Assembly (NCBI GenBank): GCA_028704885.1
Contig: JAQWEN010000001.1
Span: forward strand, 523,107 to 587,106
Reading direction: 5' to 3'
DNA from: Candidatus Shapirobacteria bacterium
GTDB lineage: Bacteria > Patescibacteriota > Microgenomatia > UBA12405
Length of the DNA: 64,000 nt
The translations under genes and the position numbers were made by a program. Within the stretch, counting starts at the first letter, position 1; each line of letters opens with the position of its first letter. The notes beneath the pieces were generated by a model. The model was not told where the DNA came from. It saw only the letters and a list, made by a program, of their open reading frames with translations, and made no database searches. Positions 4,079 to 53,376 of the stretch are shown here, in pieces.

Positions 4079-6069
4079 AAATTTTCTATGTTTTTAATTT
4101 TATCTCGGATACGAATTGCTTCTTCAAAATTTAAGTCAGCCGCAAAGGTACGCATTTGTTTCTTTAATTCTTTAATATGTTTAGTTCTTTGTGGTGGAGT
4201 GAGATCTAAAACGTCAACTTTATCAAGATCAGTTTTACCTTCGGACTGAATTAATTCTATTATTTGAGGACGGATAGATTTTACCACACTTTGGGGAATA
4301 ATGTGATTATCTTCATTATATTTTACTTGAATTTTACGTCGACGGTTAACTTCTTTAATAGCTCCATCCATGGCATCAGAAATTGAATCGGCATATAAAA
4401 TTACTTGACCATCAAGATGTCGGGACGCTCGACCCATAATTTGAATTAAGGCAGATTTAGAACGTAAAAATCCCTGTTGATCAGCATCAAGAATGGCAAC
4501 TAAACTAACTTCAGGAAGATCAAGACCTTCGCGCAAAAGATTAATACCGACTAAAACGTCATAATTTCCAGAACGTAAATCATCTAAAATTTTAGAACGT
4601 TCAAGAGTGACGATATCAGAATGAAGATAAGCAACTTTTAAATCGGTACCAGTTTTATTGGGATCAGATAAATAAGCTGATAAATCTTCCGCCATACGTT
4701 TGGTTAAAGTGGTGACTAAAACTCTCTCTTTATTAACGACTCGTTTTTTGATTTCTTCAATTAAGTCAGGAATCTGATTTTTACTAGATTTAACAGTAAT
4801 TTGAGGATCAATAAGACCAGTCGGACGAATAATTTGTTCAATAATATTATTTTTAGAATCATTAATCTCATATGGCGATGGAGTAGCGGAAAGATAAATA
4901 ATTTTAGAAACTCGAGAATTAAATTCATCAAAAGTTAAAGGTCGATTATCAAAAGCTGATGGAAGCCTAAAACCAAAATCAACTAAATTTTTCTTTCGAG
5001 CTTGGTCGCCAGCATGCATGCCGCCAATTTGAGGAATGGTGACATGAGATTCATCAATGATGGTTAAAAAATTGTCACCCCAAAGATGATGAAAATAATC
5101 AACAAGAGTATATGGTGGATCGCCGGGTTTGCGGTTTTTGTCAAAATAAATTGAATAGTTTTCAATACCGTTGATATAACCGGTTTCTTGAAGCATTTCT
5201 AAATCATATTCAACACGCTGTTGAATTCGATGAGCTTCTAAAATTTTATTTTGCTTTTTAAAAAGTTCGACTTGTTTAGCACAATCTTTTCTAATATTTT
5301 CAAAAACTTCTGGTAAATTTTTATCACCGCCAACATATTGTTTGGCTGGGAAAAGTTTAAAACTTTCCAATATTTGTTCTTGGGCAGTCAGCGGATGATG
5401 TTGAATAATTTTAATTAATTTTTCATCGTCAAATTCGAGAGATAAAAATGATTCTGTATAAGATGGCCAAATTTCAATATTTTCTCCTCTGACTCGAAAA
5501 GTGTTACGTTTAAATTCAAGTTCAGAACGAGTGTAAAAAAGAGAGATAAAAGATTCAAAAAGTTGACGACGTGGATAATTTTGACCTATTTTTAAGTCTA
5601 AAGCTTTGTTTTGAAATTCAGCCGGATCACCAATGTTGTAAATACAACTAACTGAAGCAATAACGATATTATCATTGCCTGACAAAAGATTAGACGAAGC
5701 TTCAAGACGAAGCCGATCAATCATGTCGTTAATTTGAACTTCTTTGGCAATATAAGTGTCGGAAGAAGGAATATAGGCTTCAGGTTGATAATAATCATAA
5801 TAAGAAACAAAATAGGAAACTTTATTGTTGGGAAAGAGTTCTTTAAATTCCTGATAAAGTTGACCGGCTAAAGTTTTGTTATGAGAAATTACCAAAGTTG
5901 GTAATTGAGTTTTTTGGATAACATTGGCAATGGTAAAAGTCTTACCAGATCCAGTAACACCCAGCAAGGTTTGGCGATTAATTCCATTGTTTAAATTAGT
6001 GACTAATTTATCAATGGCTTGGGGCTGATCGCCAGAGGGCTGAAATGATGAATTTAGTTCAAACGGCAC
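4075..6069 (-). CDS. uvrB: Excinuclease ABC subunit B (UvrB)
   Basis: Helicase motif I (GVTGSGKTFT). C-terminal UvrB/UvrC interaction helix (EEAIRIRDKI). 664 aa. Confidence 0.95.
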   Translation of the reverse strand: MPFELNSSFQPSGDQPQAIDKLVTNLNNGINRQTLLGVTGSGKTFTIANVIQKTQLPTLVISHNKTLAGQLYQEFKELFPNNKVSYFVSYYDYYQPEAYIPSSDTYIAKEVQINDMIDRLRLEASSNLLSGNDNIVIASVSCIYNIGDPAEFQNKALDLKIGQNYPRRQLFESFISLFYTRSELEFKRNTFRVRGENIEIWPSYTESFLSLEFDDEKLIKIIQHHPLTAQEQILESFKLFPAKQYVGGDKNLPEVFENIRKDCAKQVELFKKQNKILEAHRIQQRVEYDLEMLQETGYINGIENYSIYFDKNRKPGDPPYTLVDYFHHLWGDNFLTIIDESHVTIPQIGGMHAGDQARKKNLVDFGFRLPSAFDNRPLTFDEFNSRVSKIIYLSATPSPYEINDSKNNIIEQIIRPTGLIDPQITVKSSKNQIPDLIEEIKKRVVNKERVLVTTLTKRMAEDLSAYLSDPNKTGTDLKVAYLHSDIVTLERSKILDDLRSGNYDVLVGINLLREGLDLPEVSLVAILDADQQGFLRSKSALIQIMGRASRHLDGQVILYADSISDAMDGAIKEVNRRRKIQVKYNEDNHIIPQSVVKSIRPQIIELIQSEGKTDLDKVDVLDLTPPQRTKHIKELKKQMRTFAADLNFEEAIRIRDKIKNIENL

Positions 6070-6157
6070 AGTATATATTTTATCAAAGTTTTGGGTTTTA
6101 TTTGGTAAAAACTGACTTAGTTTGTTTTATTGAATAAAATTAAATTTAAAAATATAC

Positions 6158-6781
6158 TTGGCTTGTATGAAAACTGGACTTATTGAAGTAATTTACGGGC
6201 CAATGTTTTCCGGTAAAACCAGTGAATTAATTAGACAAATTGAAATGGCTATGATTTCTAAATCGGAAATAATAGCTTTTAAGCCAAAAATTGATGGTCG
6301 ATATAAAAAATATAAAATATGTACCAATAATGGGCGTTCTTTAAGATCGGTGGTAGTAAAAAATTCTTTAGAGATTATCGAAGTAATTAAAAAAACTAAA
6401 AAACCAATAACAAAAATATTTATCGATGAGGTTCAATTTTTTGATAAAAAAATTGTTGATGTAGTTACTTTTTTATCAAAAGATAAAGGTATTGGTGTAA
6501 CTGTAGCTGGCTTAGCTCAAGATTTTAGAGGAGAACCATTTGGTCAAATGCCAAATTTATTGGGAATGGCTCAAAAAGTTCAAAGTTTGACCGCTATCTG
6601 TGTTTATGAAAAAGAAAATGGCACTCTTTGCCAAAGACCAGCCTGTTTTACTCAAAGATTGATTAATGGGAAAGCAGCTTCTTATGACAGCCCAATTATT
6701 CTAGTTGACGGGGCTAATTCTTATACGGCAAGGTGCGAAAAACATTGGGAAGTTCCCAATAGGCCAGAAACTAAATTGTAA
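6158..6781 (+). CDS. tdk: Thymidine kinase
   Basis: P-loop (GPMFSGKTSELI) and C-terminal Zn-ribbon cysteines typical of type II TK. True start may be the Met at 6167. Confidence 0.9.
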   Translation: MACMKTGLIEVIYGPMFSGKTSELIRQIEMAMISKSEIIAFKPKIDGRYKKYKICTNNGRSLRSVVVKNSLEIIEVIKKTKKPITKIFIDEVQFFDKKIVDVVTFLSKDKGIGVTVAGLAQDFRGEPFGQMPNLLGMAQKVQSLTAICVYEKENGTLCQRPACFTQRLINGKAASYDSPIILVDGANSYTARCEKHWEVPNRPETKL

Positions 6782-6822
6782 TATTGTAAACAATAAATTA
6801 TACGTGTAATATTTTTGTAAAC

Positions 6823-8358
6823 ATGCTTACAAAAATATTGTCGATGGCAAATATTGGTTTAAAAACTGAAAATGTGGAAGTGGAAGTTAATGTGGCAGAT
6901 AAAGGTTTTCCTGGATTTGGAATTGTCGGTTTAGCCAGCAAAGCGGTGGAGGAAACAAAAGAGAGAGTAAAAACAGCGATTATTAATTCGGATATTGAAT
7001 TTCCAACAGCAAAAATTACAATTAATTTGGCGCCAGCTGACTTGGCAAAAGAAGGTTCTGGCTATGATTTACCGGTGGCAATCGGAATTATTTCTGCGAT
7101 TGGCGAATTAGTTTTACCAAAAGAAAAAGCTTATTTTTATGGAGAATTATCTTTGGATGGAAGTTTACGTCATACTAGAGGTGTATTTTTATTGGCACTT
7201 TTGGCAAAAGAAGAAGGTGTTAAAAATATTTTTGTACCAAGAATGAGTGCTAATGAGGCTAGTGTGGTTGAGGATATAAATGTTTATCCAGTTGATAATT
7301 TAAAAAGTCTGATTAGACATTTTAAAGGTGAAAAATTAATTGAAGCTTTAAAACCAGTAAATGTGACAGAAATTTTAAGCGACATAACTCCAGAATTCGA
7401 TTTTAGTGAAGTTTTAGGGCAACAACAGGCAAAAAGAGCTTTAGAAATTGCGGCAGCTGGCGGACATAATATTTTTATGATGGGACCTCCTGGATCGGGA
7501 AAAACAATGTTGGCTCGAGCAATGGCTGGCATTTTGCCAAACTTAACCGAAAAGGAAAGTTTAGAAGTGACTAAAATTTATTCCCTGACAGGAAATATTC
7601 CACCAGGCGGATCTTTGATTAGACAAAGACCTTTTAGAAGCCCACATCATACAACTTCACAAATTGGGTTGATTGGGGGCGGCAGTAATCCCCACCCCGG
7701 AGAAATATCTTTGGCTCACCGAGGGGTATTATTTTTAGATGAATTTCCTGAATTTGGGAGAAATTCACTTGAAGCTTTAAGACAACCATTGGAAGATGGT
7801 TATGTTTGCGTGTCGAGGGCAGCCGGCTCAGTAACTTTTCCAGCCCAATTTATGTTAGTGGCAGCGGCAAATCCTTGCCCGTGCGGCCATTTAGGTGATC
7901 CAAAAAAAGATTGTAAATGCAGCGGTTATCAAATTTTGAATTATCAAAAAAAATTGTCTGGGCCAATAATGGACAGAATTGATTTACATTTAACAGTGCC
8001 GGCAGTTGATGTAAATAATTTGATGATTGATAAAGAAAAAGTAAAAGGAGAAAGTTCGGTGGAAATTAAAAAACGAATAAATGAAGCTAGAAAAATTCAG
8101 AGTGAAAGATTCAAAAGTTTGGCTCATATTCACAGTAATTCGGATATGAAAAATAGCCATTTAAAAGAATTTGCTAAATTAAGTGATGAAGCAAATTTAC
8201 TGTTAAAACAGGCTGTTAATAAATTTGCATTGTCAGCTAGATCTTATTTTAGATTAATAAAAGTGGCTCGAACCATTGCTGATTTAGAAAAATCAGAAAT
8301 AATCAAAGAAGTTCATGTGGCGGAAGCGCTGCAATATCGTGTGAGGAATGATGGTTAG
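6823..8358 (+). CDS. comM: Mg-chelatase-like AAA+ ATPase ComM/YifB (competence protein ComM)
   Basis: N-terminal Lon-like domain. AAA+ Walker A (GPPGSGKT) and Walker B (LFLDEF). C-terminal ALQYR motif. Confidence 0.85.
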   Translation: MLTKILSMANIGLKTENVEVEVNVADKGFPGFGIVGLASKAVEETKERVKTAIINSDIEFPTAKITINLAPADLAKEGSGYDLPVAIGIISAIGELVLPKEKAYFYGELSLDGSLRHTRGVFLLALLAKEEGVKNIFVPRMSANEASVVEDINVYPVDNLKSLIRHFKGEKLIEALKPVNVTEILSDITPEFDFSEVLGQQQAKRALEIAAAGGHNIFMMGPPGSGKTMLARAMAGILPNLTEKESLEVTKIYSLTGNIPPGGSLIRQRPFRSPHHTTSQIGLIGGGSNPHPGEISLAHRGVLFLDEFPEFGRNSLEALRQPLEDGYVCVSRAAGSVTFPAQFMLVAAANPCPCGHLGDPKKDCKCSGYQILNYQKKLSGPIMDRIDLHLTVPAVDVNNLMIDKEKVKGESSVEIKKRINEARKIQSERFKSLAHIHSNSDMKNSHLKEFAKLSDEANLLLKQAVNKFALSARSYFRLIKVARTIADLEKSEIIKEVHVAEALQYRVRNDG

Positions 8359-10858: not shown

Positions 10859-11254
10859 TTACAATATGCCTTGACGTTTCCATACTAAAAACTTAAGAGG
10901 ATTAGATTTTTCTCTGATATTTGGTTTATCAATTTCTTCAATAATTTTAGGATCAAAAAGAAAACTCCCGATTGGGATAAGATTGACTCTAATAAAATTT
11001 GAAATTGGATAATTGATTTCTTTATTTAAAATTAATGGTGATTCTAATCTATCAAGACGTCGATGTAATTCATTATGATCTCTAATTAATGATGGGTACA
11101 AATTAGCTTTAATATTTAAATCAAAGTCTGGAGGAACTATTCCTCTTTTTTTATCTTCACGAGTGACAATATGGTGACAATTGTAATTAGGGTTATTTAA
11201 ATCAATATTATAAATTTCAAAAACTCGGGCTCTATTAATTTTATAGCATTCCAT
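10859..11254 (-). CDS. Small hypothetical protein with a possible HNH-like nuclease motif
   Basis: 131 aa. The segment NCHHIVTRED...N...DHNELHRRLD resembles His-Asn-His spacing. Weak evidence. Confidence 0.3.
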   Translation of the reverse strand: MECYKINRARVFEIYNIDLNNPNYNCHHIVTREDKKRGIVPPDFDLNIKANLYPSLIRDHNELHRRLDRLESPLILNKEINYPISNFIRVNLIPIGSFLFDPKIIEEIDKPNIREKSNPLKFLVWKRQGIL

Positions 11255-11363: not shown

Positions 11364-11435
11364 GGCCCTATCGTCTAATGGTTAGGACGGCAGATTCTCA
11401 TTCTGCTAATCGGAGTTCGATTCTCCGTGGGGTCA
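11364..11435 (+). tRNA. tRNA-Glu (anticodon CUC)
   Basis: Hand-folded cloverleaf. Acceptor GGCCCTA/TGGGGTC (two G-U pairs), D-arm GTCT-AATGGTTA-GGAC, anticodon stem GCAGA/TCTGC with loop TTCTCAT, T-arm CGGAG-TTCGATT-CTCCG, discriminator A. No encoded CCA. Confidence 0.8.
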
Positions 11436-12050
11436 CAAAAGAAATCTCAGTTTAAGAAGTAGTACATCCAGGGTGTAGCTTGAGAAAAATATCCAAAAAA
11501 TAATATCAATTTGATGTTTGCGAAGTTTTTGAAGAAATTTGTTAAAAAAGGGATAAATAAAGTAAAGAAAAATGGTAGTTAAAATACCAAAAATGATCAT
11601 ATTTTGTAAATAAATATAACCATTAAGATTGAAAGGTTTGGAAGAATAATCCCAAAATTTGTTATAACCGTAAAACAATACGATAAAAGCAGCACAAAGA
11701 TATTCGACTGAACTTGAAACCAAAGTACACAAAATAAAAACAGAAAAGACGTTTAATTTGTATTTTTTAACTAAAGGAATAACTAAAACAATAATTGCAA
11801 CAACACCAAGTCCATAAGGCGGGGCTAACGGCATAATAGTGGGTGTAATTGGGTACCAGCCCGAGGGAAGTATATAAATCCAAATTAGCTCTAAAAAATG
11901 ACCCACTATTGAAAAAACCCAAAAATAAATAAACATCTTTTGAAAAAAAAGAAAAAAATGTTTTAAAAAAGTTATCTGCAAATCAATTTCGCCCGTATCA
12001 CCACTTAGAACCCGATATCGGAAGTTCATATCTATATTATATGCTAACAA
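11433..12050 (-). CDS. Hypothetical multi-pass membrane protein
   Basis: 205 aa and very hydrophobic. The ORF end touches the tRNA-Glu 3' end by 3 nt. Confidence 0.35.
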   Translation of the reverse strand: MLAYNIDMNFRYRVLSGDTGEIDLQITFLKHFFLFFQKMFIYFWVFSIVGHFLELIWIYILPSGWYPITPTIMPLAPPYGLGVVAIIVLVIPLVKKYKLNVFSVFILCTLVSSSVEYLCAAFIVLFYGYNKFWDYSSKPFNLNGYIYLQNMIIFGILTTIFLYFIYPFFNKFLQKLRKHQIDIIFWIFFSSYTLDVLLLKLRFLL

Positions 12051-27258: not shown

Positions 27259-27885
27259 ATGCTCAGCTATGAAAAAATATTGATTGGAGAGTTAGAAACT
27301 AACTGTTATTTGATCTGGGAAGAAGAAACAAAAGAATGTTTAGTAATTGATCCGGGTGATGATGGAGTGGGTATTAGTGAAGAAATAAATAATAAAAAAT
27401 TAAAAGTTAAAGCTGTATTTTTAACCCATGGCCATTTTGACCATTCAATGGGAGCATTGGATTTAAAATTAATTTACAATGTTGATTTTGGCTGCAGTGA
27501 AAAAGATGCTTTTCTTTTAGATAGACAAGATGAAACAGCTAAACATTTTTTAAAAAAAGAAATTCAAGTGCCTAATTTTATAAAAATAGATATTGATTTA
27601 GATAAAATAAAAAAATTTGAATTAGGAGAAGAAATAATAGAAATTATTAAAACTCCGGGACACACTCCAGGTAGTGTGTGTTTTTACAATAAAAAGAATA
27701 AATTATTGTTTAGTGGAGATACATTATTTGCCGGACTTAGGGGTAGAACTGATTTTAAATACGGATCAACCAAAGAAATATTTAAGAGTCTTAAAAAATT
27801 GATGAAATTAGACAAGAAAACATTAGTTTTACCAGGACATGGAGATGAAACGACAATCGAGAGAGAATCTAGACGTTACCTCTAA
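27259..27885 (+). CDS. MBL-fold metallo-hydrolase (hydroxyacylglutathione hydrolase-like)
   Basis: HxHxDH metal motif (THGHFDH), downstream Asp/His ligands. 208 aa. Confidence 0.8.
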   Translation: MLSYEKILIGELETNCYLIWEEETKECLVIDPGDDGVGISEEINNKKLKVKAVFLTHGHFDHSMGALDLKLIYNVDFGCSEKDAFLLDRQDETAKHFLKKEIQVPNFIKIDIDLDKIKKFELGEEIIEIIKTPGHTPGSVCFYNKKNKLLFSGDTLFAGLRGRTDFKYGSTKEIFKSLKKLMKLDKKTLVLPGHGDETTIERESRRYL

Positions 27886-28059
27886 GATTATCAATAGTTT
27901 CTTCAAAATTTTTGATGTGATCTTGTTTAATACTTTCCAAAAGCTCAATTAAAAGACCGTTGATGTAAGTTTCAATGGCTTTTGATTGTTCTGGAGTTAA
28001 TTTTAGATCTTGGGTTAGTTGTTCAATGGTTTGCATTAATTAGATTATAACATTTGTCG

Positions 28060-28065
28060 TATAAT
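28060..28065 (+). promoter_or_regulatory. -10 hexamer TATAAT 13 nt upstream of the duplicated tRNA-Gln 5' fragment
   Basis: TATAAT at 28060-28065. Its placement relative to the tRNA-like 5' end matches the tRNA-Glu and tRNA-Pro promoters. Confidence 0.3.
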
Positions 28066-28078
28066 AGGTTGTCTTTAA

Positions 28079-28154
28079 TGCTTCGTCGTTGCCGATTCGA
28101 TTAAAGTCGAATCGAGCATCCTCGATCTGAAGGATCGGGACTAATGGTAGGACA
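28079..28154 (+). pseudogene. Duplicated 5' fragment of tRNA-Gln (nt 1-25) split by a 51-nt hairpin-rich insertion
   Basis: tgcttcgtcgt (identical to tRNA-Gln nt 1-11), then a 51-nt insert with two internal palindromes (cgattcga...tcgaatcg; cctcgatc...gatcggg), then ctaatggtaggaca (identical to tRNA-Gln nt 12-25). Similarity ends after the D-arm. Confidence 0.55.
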
Positions 28155-28158
28155 AAAT

Positions 28159-28401
28159 ATGTATTACACTTATGTTTTAATTTCAGTAAAAGACAATTCT
28201 TATTACATCGGTTCAACTTCTAACATTGAACAAAGATTAAACTATCACAATACTGGAAGATCTAGCTACACAAAATTAAAAATGCCGTGGAATTTGGTAT
28301 ACTTTGAGGAATTTCAAACCCTTTCTTTAGCTAGAAAAAGAGAAACACAAATAAAAGCTTGGAAAAGCAGAAAAGCTATTGAAAGATTGATAAAAAAATA
28401 A
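28159..28401 (+). CDS. GIY-YIG nuclease-domain protein (YhbQ/UPF0213-like)
   Basis: MYYTYVLIS...YYIGSTSNIEQRLNYHN...R is a canonical GIY-YIG/URI domain of about 80 aa. The stop codon directly abuts nt 1 of tRNA-Gln. The listed ORF start at 28144 lies inside the tRNA-derived fragment, so the Met at 28159 is the more likely start. Confidence 0.8.
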   Translation: MYYTYVLISVKDNSYYIGSTSNIEQRLNYHNTGRSSYTKLKMPWNLVYFEEFQTLSLARKRETQIKAWKSRKAIERLIKK

Positions 28402-28472
28402 TGCTTCGTCGTCTAATGGTAGGACAGTCGGCTCTGAACCGACTAATTGTGGTTCGAATCCATACGAAGCAA
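28402..28472 (+). tRNA. tRNA-Gln (anticodon CUG)
   Basis: Hand-folded. U1-A72 acceptor (TGCTTCG/CGAAGCA), D-arm GTCT-AATGGTA-GGAC, anticodon stem GTCGG/CCGAC with loop CTCTGAA, T-arm TGTGG-TTCGAAT-CCATA, discriminator A. Confidence 0.85.
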
Positions 28473-28473
28473 C

Positions 28474-53340: not shown

Positions 53341-53376
53341 AACCCCCCGAAATTTCGGGGGGTATTTGTTTTTATA
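53341..53376 (+). terminator. Rho-independent terminator
   Basis: CCCCCCGAAATTTCGGGGGG perfect GC-rich hairpin followed by TATTTGTTTTT. Confidence 0.85.

What the first reader, a model, noticed from the sequence alone, without database searches (positions are those of the whole stretch)
28060..28472. tRNA-Gln locus rearranged around a GIY-YIG ORF: duplicated tRNA 5' fragment with a hairpin-rich 51-nt insert, then GIY-YIG gene, then intact tRNA-Gln
Downstream of a TATAAT box, 28079-28089 reproduces tRNA-Gln nt 1-11 exactly. Then comes a 51-nt insert made of two small palindromes. Then 28141-28154 reproduces tRNA-Gln nt 12-25. After that, similarity to the tRNA ends and a YhbQ-type GIY-YIG nuclease ORF begins. 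Its stop codon abuts nt 1 of a complete tRNA-Gln at 28402. The pattern looks like the original tRNA-Gln, with its promoter, was interrupted by an element carrying a GIY-YIG gene plus a replacement tRNA copy. It could be a homing-endonuclease-like or tRNA-targeting mobile cassette or its decayed remnant. A MITE-like mini-insertion sits in the old 5' fragment. No integrase is nearby.
Basis: seen in the sequence. Interest (0 to 1): 0.58.

Follow-up and report, generated by a model that had tools for sequence, protein, structure and literature searches.

The report
GIY-YIG nuclease cassette inside tRNA-Gln
A 323-base selfish cassette, made of a conserved double hairpin and a tiny GIY-YIG nuclease gene, sits inside this bacterium's tRNA-Gln gene and rebuilds the gene by supplying a second copy of its first 11 bases; it belongs to a widespread family of tRNA-nested elements for which I found no published description.

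Summary
28076-28089 (TAA + tRNA-Gln nt 1-11) and 28141-28154 (nt 12-25) exactly repeat 28399-28426. A 51-nt double hairpin separates them. An 80-aa GIY-YIG ORF (28159-28401) abuts the intact tRNA-Gln (28402-28473).

Close relatives (neighbouring MBL gene 97% and 89% identical) have the same promoter region and an identical tRNA-Gln but lack one 323-nt block (28090-28412). Another relative keeps only a scrap. These are empty, filled and remnant states.

The "MITE-like insert" is not independent. The same hairpin pair lies at tRNA nt 11|12 in all 12 distinct related cassettes, mostly at tRNA-Glu. It has compensatory stem changes and was never found without the nuclease gene.

The upstream nt 1-11 copy matches the host tRNA in 11/11 loci (0/121 mismatches), whereas the nt 12-25 copy drifts. 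The ORF is under purifying selection (dN/dS about 0.1).

Small UPF0213/YhbQ-type GIY-YIG genes flanked by tRNA fragments and CCCGA/TCGGG hairpins occur across many phyla. One element carries a whole foreign replacement tRNA.

Best reading: a homing-endonuclease-like mobile cassette. The enzymology and the hairpins' role are inferred. I found no published description.

The parts
28060..28065 (+). TATAAT -10 box of the native tRNA-Gln promoter, which now probably also drives the cassette
   Evidence: Sequence. A TATAAT lies 12-24 nt upstream of tRNA-Gln in the empty sites L053, L056, L058, L059 and upstream of the 5' fragment in remnant L054. The simple sigma-70 scanner did not call it because there is no good -35.
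28076..28089 (+). Displaced native 5' end of the tRNA-Gln gene: TAA plus nt 1-11 (left repeat)
   Evidence: Exact 14-nt direct repeat of 28399-28412. It sits at the same distance from the promoter as tRNA nt 1 in the empty sites.
28090..28118 (+). Hairpin 1 of the double-hairpin unit: conserved base UGCCGA / UCG-A-GCA with a bulged A, and a variable distal stem
   Evidence: Folds. Two independent compensatory changes occur in the base of the stem across relatives. Distal-stem covariation is shown.
28119..28140 (+). Hairpin 2 of the double-hairpin unit: conserved base UCCUCG / CGGGA and a variable distal stem
   Evidence: Compensatory AT/TA/CG changes occur at the same stem positions in nine units.
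28141..28154 (+). Copy of tRNA nt 12-25. It contains AGGA (28149-28152), the probable Shine-Dalgarno sequence for the nuclease gene.
   Evidence: Exact repeat of 28413-28426. The equivalent segment has drifted or been recruited as the start region in relatives.
28159..28401 (+). 80-aa single-domain GIY-YIG nuclease gene of the UPF0213/YhbQ type, including the stop codon TAA
   Evidence: Pfam PF01541, E = 7e-19. PDB relatives 1YWL and 1ZG2, then SLX1. Y16, G18, R26, H30 and E62 are invariant in 31 homologues. dN/dS is 0.06-0.12.
28090..28412 (+). The 323-nt block absent from empty sites. Under the preferred parse it is the inserted cassette: double hairpin + nt 12-25 copy + nuclease gene + a new copy of nt 1-11.
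   Evidence: Alignment of filled, empty and remnant sites. Because of the flanking repeats the boundaries can be slid by up to 14 nt.
28402..28473 (+). Functional tRNA-Gln(CTG). Under the preferred parse it is a chimera of cassette-borne nt 1-11 and native nt 12-72.
   Evidence: ARAGORN. Rfam tRNA, 61.3 bits. 72/72 identical to the tRNA in empty sites L053 and L059.
11364..11436 (+). The window's own tRNA-Glu(CTC): the unoccupied version of the site that carries the sister cassette in relatives
   Evidence: It has the same neighbours (ChlI, YraN, DprA, 378-aa protein) as L002 and L004-L009, but no hairpins and no nuclease gene.

Best explanation
This is a small selfish mobile cassette that lives inside tRNA genes.

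The cassette (window 28090-28412) has four parts: a conserved double hairpin, a copy of tRNA nt 12-25 that now serves as the leader and ribosome-binding region, an 80-aa UPF0213/SLX1-like GIY-YIG nuclease gene, and a fresh copy of tRNA nt 1-11 at its 3' end. It sits between nt 11 and 12 of the resident tRNA-Gln gene, in the same orientation.

The native nt 1-11 are left stranded next to the promoter. The cassette's own nt 1-11 join native nt 12-72, so a complete tRNA-Gln is still encoded.

**Shown:**
- the insertion polymorphism (empty, filled and remnant states);
- its exact boundaries;
- conservation of the hairpin structure;
- purifying selection on the nuclease gene;
- the same design at tRNA-Glu in relatives;
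- tandem re-insertions;
- a related element that carries a whole foreign replacement tRNA.

**Inferred:**
- Spread is homing-like. The nuclease breaks an unoccupied cognate tRNA gene in the D-arm region, and repair copies the cassette using the tRNA sequence itself as homology.
- The cassette is transcribed from the tRNA promoter, and RNase P separates the mRNA from the tRNA.
- The double hairpin is either the structure that the SLX1-like nuclease recognises or an RNA leader that stabilises the mRNA and occludes the ribosome-binding site.
For: **Empty, filled and remnant states**
- L059 and L053 (MBL neighbour 97% and 89% identical) share 45 upstream nt and the entire tRNA with the window, but lack exactly 323 nt.
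- L056 and L058 are also empty.
- L054/L055 retain nt 1-11 plus a 37-nt scrap upstream of an intact tRNA.

**Same module at another tRNA**
- L002, L004, L012, L038, L041, L044, L049, L065, L066 and L067 carry nt 1-11 | double hairpin | nt 12-25 | GIY-YIG | tRNA-Glu.
- L040 is a second locus with a tRNA-Gln-type 5' fragment (its contig ends before the tRNA).
- The window's syntenic tRNA-Glu is empty.

**The hairpin unit is part of the element**
- A scan with the hairpin motif alone returned only nuclease-linked copies plus high-GC chance hits.
- All six close protein homologues inspected have it.
- Fold z-scores run from -3.4 to -8.7 with compensatory changes.
- It differs at about 10% of positions between the window and L002, where synonymous sites differ by 50%.

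**Repeat behaviour**
- The upstream nt 1-11 copy equals the host tRNA in 11/11 loci, while the nt 12-25 copy drifts.
- In other classes the duplication always starts at tRNA nt 1, whether the junction is at nt 11, 22, 28 or 36. This fits a cassette-borne 5' segment kept by selection on tRNA function.
- L018's element carries an intact tRNA-Thr that differs from the outer tRNA-Thr it splits.

**Life-cycle signs**
- Tandem re-insertions occur in L041, L023 and L030, and L044 is a copy with in-frame stops.

**Protein**
- GIY-YIG with invariant catalytic-type residues.
- Nearest solved relatives are the UPF0213 proteins and SLX1.
- dN/dS is 0.06-0.12.

**Association with tRNA**
- At least 20 of 26 protein-ascertained loci from many phyla have a same-strand tRNA adjacent. 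The binomial P is about 2e-21 under an assumed 5% background.

**Precedent**
- Phage SegB, a GIY-YIG enzyme, cuts within tRNA genes. Microhomology between a tRNA 5' end and the segB 3' end gives tandem tRNA+segB repeats (PMC13096335; PMC2330249).
Against: - No enzymology exists. The protein is only an 80-aa catalytic domain with no DNA-binding domain, unlike I-TevI or SegB, so long-site recognition is unexplained.
- The rebuilt tRNA still contains the presumed target, so the filled allele is not obviously immune. Tandem arrays fit this, but it is atypical for homing.
- The nuclease's identity to relatives (87% and 77%) lies within the range of host proteins (64-90%), so there is no independent signal of horizontal transfer. 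Precise loss by recombination between the 14-nt repeats could also produce the empty sites.
- The switch between tRNA-Glu and tRNA-Gln is hard to explain by simple homing, because a Glu-type nt 1-7 would mismatch the Gln acceptor stem.
- 0/121 mismatches in a supposedly functionless relic is striking. It may mean that the relic has a function or that the duplication is target-derived.
- No close relative was found on viral contigs.
- Only one hairpin unit and one nuclease gene were seen in the 64-kb window.
Confidence: 0.68

Rival explanations
1. It is the same mobile cassette, but it moves by transposition-like insertion rather than homing. One route is staggered cuts at tRNA positions 0|1 and 11|12 that create an 11-14-nt target-site duplication. 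The other is excision as a circle by recombination between the nt 1-11 repeats, followed by Campbell-type re-integration. In this version the mobile unit is hairpins + nt 12-25 + nuclease gene, and both nt 1-11 copies come from the target.
For: - The upstream nt 1-11 copy is identical to the host tRNA in 11/11 loci with six different sequences, while nt 12-25 drifts.
- This route explains the move between tRNA-Glu and tRNA-Gln without breaking the acceptor stem.
- The 14-nt direct repeats would allow precise excision, which fits the clean empty sites.
- The hairpins with conserved single-base bulges resemble the folded single-strand sites used by other recombination systems (own knowledge: integron attC, IS200/IS605).
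Against: - The duplication starts exactly at tRNA nt 1 in classes whose junctions lie at nt 11, 22, 28 or 36. Fixed staggered cuts would not be expected to do this.
- L018 shows a plain split of the outer tRNA with no duplication and a cargo tRNA instead.
- GIY-YIG enzymes are not known as transposases in bacteria, and the known ones leave 2-nt overhangs (own knowledge).
Confidence: 0.18
2. It is a domesticated arrangement inherited vertically. The small GIY-YIG protein is a host factor co-transcribed with tRNA-Gln/Glu. The tRNA-like 5' fragment plus double hairpin is a cis-regulatory or processing leader, acting for example by RBS occlusion or as an RNase III/RNase P entry site. It is not currently mobile.
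For: - Strong purifying selection acts on the ORF and the hairpins.
- Orientation always matches the tRNA.
- Predicted leader folds repeatedly pair nt 1-11 with the purine-rich pre-start segment.
- The nt 1-11 copy is perfectly conserved.
- The element's divergence is similar to the host's.
Against: - Very close relatives lack the whole block cleanly.
- The occupied tRNA differs between related genomes (Gln here, Glu there).
- Remnants, copies with in-frame stops and tandem arrays exist.
- A family member sits inside a 23S rRNA gene.
- One element carries a foreign tRNA.
Confidence: 0.07
3. It is an RNA-level intervening sequence. The hairpin unit and the ORF-containing segment are intron-like or IVS-like insertions that are removed from a precursor, so that the upstream fragment contributes to a mature tRNA.
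For: - The inserts sit at structurally defined tRNA positions (D-stem, D-loop, anticodon loop, T-loop).
- Stems bracket the ORF and the inner tRNA in class II elements.
- The outer tRNA-Thr in L018 would be valid if the element were removed.
- CPR rRNA genes are known to hold introns that encode homing endonucleases (PMC10714607).
Against: - The downstream tRNA-Gln is complete and contiguous, so no splicing is needed.
- There is no room for a ribozyme core: 4 nt lie before the ORF and 0 nt after it.
- No Rfam intron or ribozyme hit was found.
- The outer tRNA in L015 has a 5-nt deletion, and several upstream copies have decayed.
Confidence: 0.04
4. It is a chance similarity, or an assembly artefact that duplicated part of the tRNA.
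For: Taken singly, the 11-nt and 14-nt matches have weak E-values.
Against: The same architecture appears in independent NCBI, ENA, JGI and Logan assemblies from many samples and in 12 distinct sequences.
Confidence: 0.01

Closest known systems
Free-standing GIY-YIG homing endonuclease SegB in the tRNA gene cluster of phages T4/T6
   Same: - It is a GIY-YIG nuclease gene embedded among tRNA genes, and it cuts inside tRNA genes.
[quoted passage not shown] This parallels the nt 1-11 repeat and the tandem arrays seen here.
   Different: - SegB is a larger protein with a DNA-binding region (own knowledge) and is phage-borne.
- It has no hairpin unit, does not split a tRNA gene, and leaves no stranded 5' fragment.
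- Sequence similarity to the window protein is limited to the catalytic motif. PHROG homing-endonuclease hits are weak, E = 2e-5 over 38 aa.
UPF0213/YhbQ proteins (PDB 1YWL EF2693, 1ZG2 BH0048) and the SLX1 structure-specific endonuclease
   Same: - They are the closest solved relatives by sequence (E = 8e-8 and 1.5e-6; SLX1 about 0.01).
- They share the single GIY-YIG catalytic domain of about 80-100 aa.
- SLX1 cuts branched and hairpin DNA (own knowledge), which suggests that the hairpin unit could be the substrate.
   Different: - The UPF0213 structures are deposited as hypothetical proteins with no assigned function, and I found no reported mobile or tRNA context.
- SLX1 has an extra RING domain and needs SLX4 (own knowledge).
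Integrase-mediated genomic islands and prophages that integrate into tRNA genes
   Same: They target tRNA genes and keep them functional by carrying a copy of the displaced tRNA segment, leaving a direct repeat (own knowledge). Relatives L006/L007 have such a serine-recombinase island beside the same tRNA-Glu.
   Different: - They use tyrosine or serine recombinases, are kilobases long, and duplicate the 3' part of the tRNA.
- Here there is no recombinase, the block is 323 nt, and the 5' part is duplicated.
Mitochondrial mobile endonuclease ORFs that bring a replacement gene terminus (Allomyces atp6-ORF360), and mitochondrial double-hairpin elements (DHEs)
   Same: - An endonuclease ORF invades a gene together with a replacement copy of part of that gene and leaves the original part as a pseudo-fragment (own knowledge: Paquin et al. 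1994).
- DHEs are two-hairpin, potentially mobile elements found in intergenic regions and rRNA genes (PMC10085805).
   Different: - These are organellar. The target is the 3' end of a protein-coding gene.
- DHEs are GC-rich and multi-copy, and are not obligatorily linked to the nuclease gene.
- Sequence relationship was not tested.
Archaeal tRNA introns at non-canonical positions, and split tRNAs
   Same: Insertions occur at D-arm, anticodon and T-arm positions, and some introns transpose between tRNAs (PMC10714607).
   Different: - They are removed by a splicing endonuclease at bulge-helix-bulge motifs, with no intact copy alongside and no nuclease ORF of this kind.
- Bacteria lack that endonuclease (own knowledge).
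- Here the intact tRNA makes splicing unnecessary.

Membership tests
GIY-YIG nuclease superfamily (Pfam PF01541) | Domain match above the curated threshold | tested here: met
   68.3 bits against a cut-off of 22.6, covering residues 6-76 of the 85-aa ORF.
GIY-YIG nuclease superfamily (Pfam PF01541) | Conserved catalytic-type residues (Tyr of GIY, Tyr-x-Gly of YIG, Arg, Glu) | tested here: met
   Y16, G18, R26, H30 and E62 are invariant and Y5 is nearly invariant in 31 homologues. The mapping onto I-TevI Y6/Y17/R27/E75 is from my own knowledge and was not tested structurally.
UPF0213 / YhbQ-type single-domain GIY-YIG proteins | Significant sequence similarity over the full length to characterised members, and a size of about 80-110 aa with no extra domain | tested here: met
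   1YWL, E = 8.4e-8 (query 2-78). 1ZG2, E = 1.5e-6. The protein is 80 aa with no other Pfam domain apart from an overlapping weak T5orf172 hit.
Free-standing homing endonuclease gene | Nuclease ORF not inside an intron or intein, with presence/absence polymorphism at one locus among close relatives | tested here: met
   Empty sites L059, L053, L056 and L058 against the filled window. No intron or ribozyme was found.
Free-standing homing endonuclease gene | Degenerate and lost copies (invasion-decay-loss cycle) | tested here: met
   L054/L055 remnant. L044 ORF with in-frame stops. Truncated upstream copies in L041 and L023.
Free-standing homing endonuclease gene | The encoded enzyme cleaves the unoccupied allele site-specifically | not testable with these tools
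   This needs purified protein and substrates carrying the empty tRNA-Gln or tRNA-Glu site.
Free-standing homing endonuclease gene | Separate DNA-binding domain that gives long-site specificity, as in I-TevI and the Seg proteins | tested here: not met
   Only the 80-aa catalytic domain is present. This lowers the claim that it is a classical homing endonuclease, but not the claim that it behaves like one.
Free-standing homing endonuclease gene | The occupied allele is immune because the insertion destroys the target | tested here: inconclusive
   The upstream copy is split by the hairpins, but the rebuilt tRNA restores nt 1-25 intact. Tandem re-insertions (L041, L023, L030) suggest incomplete immunity.
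Group I intron with an endonuclease ORF | Ribozyme core flanking the ORF, and exons that are contiguous only after splicing | tested here: not met
   There is no Rfam hit at E <= 1 other than tRNA. Only 4 nt lie before the ORF and 0 nt after it. The downstream tRNA is complete.
Integrase-mediated tRNA-targeting island | Tyrosine or serine recombinase gene, and duplication of the tRNA 3' segment | tested here: not met
   No recombinase lies within about 4 kb. The duplicated part is the 5' segment.
MITE (for the 51-nt insert alone) | Multiple dispersed copies, terminal inverted repeats, target-site duplication, and independence from the autonomous element's location | tested here: not met
   It is single-copy in 64 kb. 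No target-site duplication flanks it (TCGT|...|CTAA). In this subfamily the a/d ends are no longer complementary. Every true copy is followed by the nuclease gene. In other classes, mini units do occur at extra tRNA positions (L015).
Known structured RNA families (Rfam 15) | Covariance-model match to the double hairpin | tested here: not met
   There is no family match in the window region or in 10 related loci.

The most novel reading that the evidence does not exclude
UPF0213/YhbQ-type mini GIY-YIG nucleases are the engines of a previously unrecognised class of hairpin-bounded selfish elements that spans many phyla. These elements live inside tRNA genes, and occasionally rRNA genes. They neutralise their own damage by carrying either the 5' piece of the tRNA or a whole replacement tRNA. 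The bulged double hairpin would be the structure-specific substrate of the nuclease. If so, this gives the first biological role for the UPF0213 family and a new route by which tRNA genes are duplicated, replaced and exchanged between genomes.
Probability: 0.4. Interest if true: 0.82.

Novelty: new variant of a known kind. Interest (0 to 1): 0.72.

Why it matters
- **Function for an orphan family.** The family is large (9,341 clusters at 50% identity with E <= 1e-3), and its nearest solved relatives (UPF0213) are deposited as hypothetical proteins. This would give it a concrete, testable function.
- **A new way to invade an essential gene.** The element can enter an essential, often single-copy RNA gene in a tiny genome without killing the host, because it rebuilds the gene from its own 3' end or brings a spare.
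- **tRNA gene evolution.** It offers a mechanism for tRNA gene turnover, chimeric tRNAs and tRNA pseudo-fragments in Patescibacteria, Bacteroidota and other phyla.
- **Annotation.** ORF tails such as "ALSSNG" are read from tRNA sequence, and the tRNA fragments could be mistaken for split or intron-containing tRNAs.
- **Possible tool.** A compact nuclease that recognises a structure or a tRNA gene, paired with a defined hairpin partner, could also be of practical interest.

Tried and rejected
1. **Group I intron, ribozyme or known RNA motif.** Rfam searches by E-value on the window region and on 10 related loci found only tRNA, rRNA and one unrelated Flavo-1 RNA.
2. **The 51-nt insert as a multi-copy MITE.** A search allowing 3 mismatches and half-site regex scans of the whole window found only this copy.
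3. **Other nuclease copies or tRNA fragments in the window.** None were found.
4. **Hairpin-motif scan of the metagenome collection.** Eight of 17 hits were high-GC coding-sequence chance matches with no hairpins, and I discarded them. My motif also missed the TGCCGG/CCGAGCA variant, which later turned up through protein look-ups.
5. **Diverse protein alignment A1.** It was too variable for back-translation, so I used the close alignment A2.
6. **Horizontal-transfer test.** Comparing element and host protein identities gave no signal.
7. **Viral carriage.** No close relative was found, and four palindrome hits were chance coding sequence.
8. **Anti-phage defence membership.** PADLOC gave only sub-significant hits. 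NCBIfam gave only a weak sub-threshold hit to group I intron endonuclease.
9. **Literature.** Seven full-text searches, including the palindrome string and the terms YhbQ, UPF0213 and COG2827, found no description of this arrangement.
10. **T-loop-like recognition.** I considered and dropped the idea that TCGAATC in hairpin 1 mimics a SegB-type T-loop site, because it is not conserved in relatives.
11. **Sigma-70 scanner.** It did not call the TATAAT at 28060 because there is no -35. The promoter assignment rests on conservation in the empty sites.
Full report
**1. What is in the window**

- TATAAT lies at 28060-28065.
- 28076-28089 (TAA + tRNA-Gln nt 1-11) exactly repeats 28399-28412.
- 28141-28154 (nt 12-25) exactly repeats 28413-28426.
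- A unique 51-nt insert (28090-28140) lies between them and folds into two hairpins (z = -4.1).

The ORF is a GIY-YIG domain protein. Homologues and the deposited gene call place its start at ATG 28159, so it is 80 aa long. AGGA from the D-arm copy lies 6 nt upstream. The stop codon TAA (28399-28401) abuts tRNA-Gln(CTG) at 28402-28473. No recombinase lies within about 4 kb.

**2. The decisive comparison: empty, filled and remnant sites**

I used the neighbouring MBL-fold gene to retrieve syntenic loci. Relatives L059 (MBL 97% identical) and L053 (89%) have the same 45 nt upstream, including the TATAAT box, and a tRNA-Gln that is 72/72 identical. Their tRNA is uninterrupted.

In a formal alignment the window differs from them by one 323-nt block. 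L056/L057 and L058 are also empty.

L054/L055 show a third state: nt 1-11 of their own tRNA-Gln, then a 37-nt scrap, then the intact tRNA. The scrap contains GGGACTAG, which matches the last hairpin half-site plus tRNA nt 12 onward, and it has an ORF-end-like ...TTGAAA...TAA.

**3. The 51-nt insert is part of the element, not a separate MITE**

Close homologues of the nuclease (74-89% identical) have C-terminal tails such as ...ALSSNG...ALSSSG and ...GPIV. These are translations of tRNA 5' ends. The genes lie directly upstream of tRNA-Glu(CTC/TTC) in a different neighbourhood (ChlI-YraN-DprA).

Those loci have the same design: tRNA nt 1-11 | a homologous two-hairpin unit | nt 12-25 | GIY-YIG | complete tRNA. 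The window's own tRNA-Glu(CTC), at 11364-11436, has the same neighbours but is unoccupied.

A scan of the metagenome collection with the hairpin motif alone returned only two kinds of hit: nuclease-linked copies, and high-GC chance hits in coding sequence. One linked copy, L040, is a second locus with a tRNA-Gln-type 5' fragment. Three further homologues chosen by protein alone (L065-L067) also carry the unit.

That makes 12 distinct cassettes, all with the unit at nt 11|12.

**4. The hairpins are under selection**

The unit has the grammar a-[stem-loop]-b c-[stem-loop]-d. Here a is UGCCGA, b is UCGAGCA, c is UCCUCG and d is CGGGA.
- The a:b stem has a bulged A, and the c:d stem has a bulged U or a U-G pair.
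- The distal stems differ in length and sequence (mean identity 0.53-0.57) but always pair.
- Many double compensatory changes occur at the same stem positions.
- Fold z-scores run from -3.4 to -8.7.

In other Patescibacteria and in Bacteroidia the canonical skeleton is TCCCGA...TCGAGGA TCCTCGA...TCGGGA, which is symmetric under reverse complementation. The window's subfamily carries a compensatory pair of changes in a and b. This keeps a:b paired but breaks the a:d and b:c complementarity. A second compensatory pair (TGCCGG/CCGAGCA) occurs in L065-L067. Intrastrand hairpins are therefore what is conserved.

Between the window and L002 the unit differs at about 10% of positions, while synonymous sites of the adjacent ORF differ by 50%. 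Rfam has no matching family.

**5. The nuclease**

The closest solved relatives are the UPF0213 proteins 1YWL and 1ZG2, followed by SLX1. Catalytic-type residues are invariant. dN/dS among cassettes is 0.06-0.12, so the protein is functional. One copy, L044, carries in-frame stops.

The family is large: 9,341 clusters at 50% identity with E <= 1e-3, and 791 with E <= 1e-10. There is no DNA-binding domain.

**6. Behaviour of the repeats**

The upstream nt 1-11 copy equals the host tRNA in 11 of 11 loci with six different sequences (0/121 mismatches). The nt 12-25 copy has drifted in most lineages or been recruited as the start region.

In L041 and L023 the sequence upstream of the 5' fragment encodes the C-terminus of another nuclease copy, which indicates tandem re-insertion.

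**7. A wider family**

In 26 loci ascertained by protein alone, the GIY-YIG gene lies next to a tRNA on the same strand in at least 20. The loci come from Patescibacteria, Bacteroidota, Desulfobacterota, Acidobacteriota, Chlorobiota and others. The binomial P is about 2e-21 under an assumed 5% background. Duplicated tRNA fragments and CCCGA/TCGGG hairpins, or a 20-nt palindrome, accompany them.

I distinguish four architectures:
- **Class I** (the window): nt 1-11 | double hairpin | nt 12-25 | nuclease | tRNA.
- **Class II** (L014-L016, L018): the ORF lies in the loop of hairpin 1 and an intact tRNA lies in the loop of hairpin 2, all inside a split outer tRNA.
- **Class III** (L030, L035): nt 1-22 | palindrome | nt 23-... 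| nuclease | tRNA.
- **Class IV** (L022, L025, L028, L034): tRNA | nuclease | tRNA pieces in which a hairpin replaces the anticodon arm.

In L018 the two outer pieces join into a valid tRNA-Thr(CGT) that differs from the intact inner tRNA-Thr(CGT). That element therefore brought its own replacement tRNA.

In all classes the duplicated 5' segment begins at tRNA nt 1, whatever the junction position. One family member sits in a stem inserted into a 23S rRNA gene.

**8. Most likely mechanism**

Shown: this is a 323-nt insertion polymorphism that rebuilds the tRNA. The hairpins and the nuclease are selected. Decay, loss and re-insertion all occur.

Inferred: the cassette carries tRNA nt 1-11 at its 3' end and inserts at nt 11|12. 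This follows from the duplication always starting at nt 1, from the drifting nt 12-25 copy, and from the whole-tRNA cargo in class II.

I think it most likely spreads in a homing-like way. The nuclease would break an unoccupied cognate tRNA gene, and repair would copy the cassette using the tRNA sequence as homology. Phage SegB supplies precedent for a GIY-YIG enzyme that cuts within tRNA genes and for repeats mediated by microhomology at a tRNA 5' end.

Expression is probably from the tRNA promoter. The supporting points are the conserved TATAAT, the absence of a terminator between ORF and tRNA, and the invariant co-orientation. RNase P would then release the tRNA.

The role of the hairpins is unresolved. 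They could be the structure-specific substrate of an SLX1-like enzyme. They could also form an RNA leader: predicted folds repeatedly pair nt 1-11 with the purine-rich pre-start segment.

**9. Open problems**
- The rebuilt tRNA keeps the presumed target.
- The protein has no recognition domain.
- The Glu-to-Gln switch would break the acceptor stem under simple homing.
- The perfect conservation of the stranded nt 1-11 may point instead to target-derived duplication or to a function for the fragment.
- Element and host divergence are similar, so precise loss between the 14-nt repeats cannot be excluded as the source of the empty sites.

**10. Novelty**

Seven full-text searches found no description of UPF0213-type nucleases nested in tRNA genes, nor of this hairpin unit.

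The principles are known: free-standing homing endonuclease genes, tRNA-targeting elements that restore their target, mitochondrial double-hairpin elements, and endonuclease ORFs that bring a replacement gene end. The combination appears to be new, so I rate it a new variant of a known kind. The library does not cover all journals, so prior description cannot be excluded.

Noticed in passing
L006, L007 and L009, about 4254-8264 (relatives carrying the cassette at tRNA-Glu): A 575-aa large serine recombinase ORF on the opposite strand overlaps the end of the nuclease gene and the tRNA-Glu. A DUF87/TraG-like gene follows it. L004, L005 and L008 have a 109-aa ORF there instead. A second, unrelated integrative element seems to use the same tRNA-Glu.
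   Followed up: no
L031 1-1045 (Saccharibacteria MAG): A GIY-YIG gene of the same family lies in the loop of a long stem (CGCCCCGCTCATTTTGTGCT...AGCACAATATGAGCGGGG) inserted into a 23S rRNA gene. The Rfam LSU model matches positions 1337-2161.
   Followed up: partly
window 10859-11254 (- strand): A 131-aa ORF with no Pfam match lies between the conserved 378-aa gene and the unoccupied tRNA-Glu. It is absent from the syntenic loci L002 and L004.
   Followed up: partly
L049/L050 about 1391-1447: A second two-hairpin insertion (CACCGATGAACGAAGTTCATCGAGTGTGCACGATTCCGAGCTATTCGGAATCGGCAC) splits the D-loop copy between CTAGCGG and CTAGGACA. Hairpin units can therefore accumulate within one leader.
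   Followed up: no
homologues P0001-P0020: [quoted passage not shown] P0011's N-terminal extension is translated from the hairpin unit. These are annotation artefacts or genuine overlaps of ORF and tRNA.
   Followed up: partly
P0157 (214 aa), P0159 and P0198: Some family members contain two GIY-YIG domains in one ORF. This would fit fused tandem copies of the cassette.
   Followed up: no
L030 750-892 (- strand): A Flavo-1 RNA (RF01705, exactly at the gathering score) lies about 550 nt upstream of the Flavobacterium tRNA-Arg cassette.
   Followed up: no
window 27869-28036 (- strand): A conserved 55-aa ORF with no Pfam match overlaps the end of the MBL gene and is present in all syntenic relatives (70-100% identical).
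   Followed up: no
window 53344-53361: A CCCCCGAAATTTCGGGG palindrome. It shares the CCCGA/TCGGG letters but is isolated and looks like an ordinary terminator stem.
   Followed up: no
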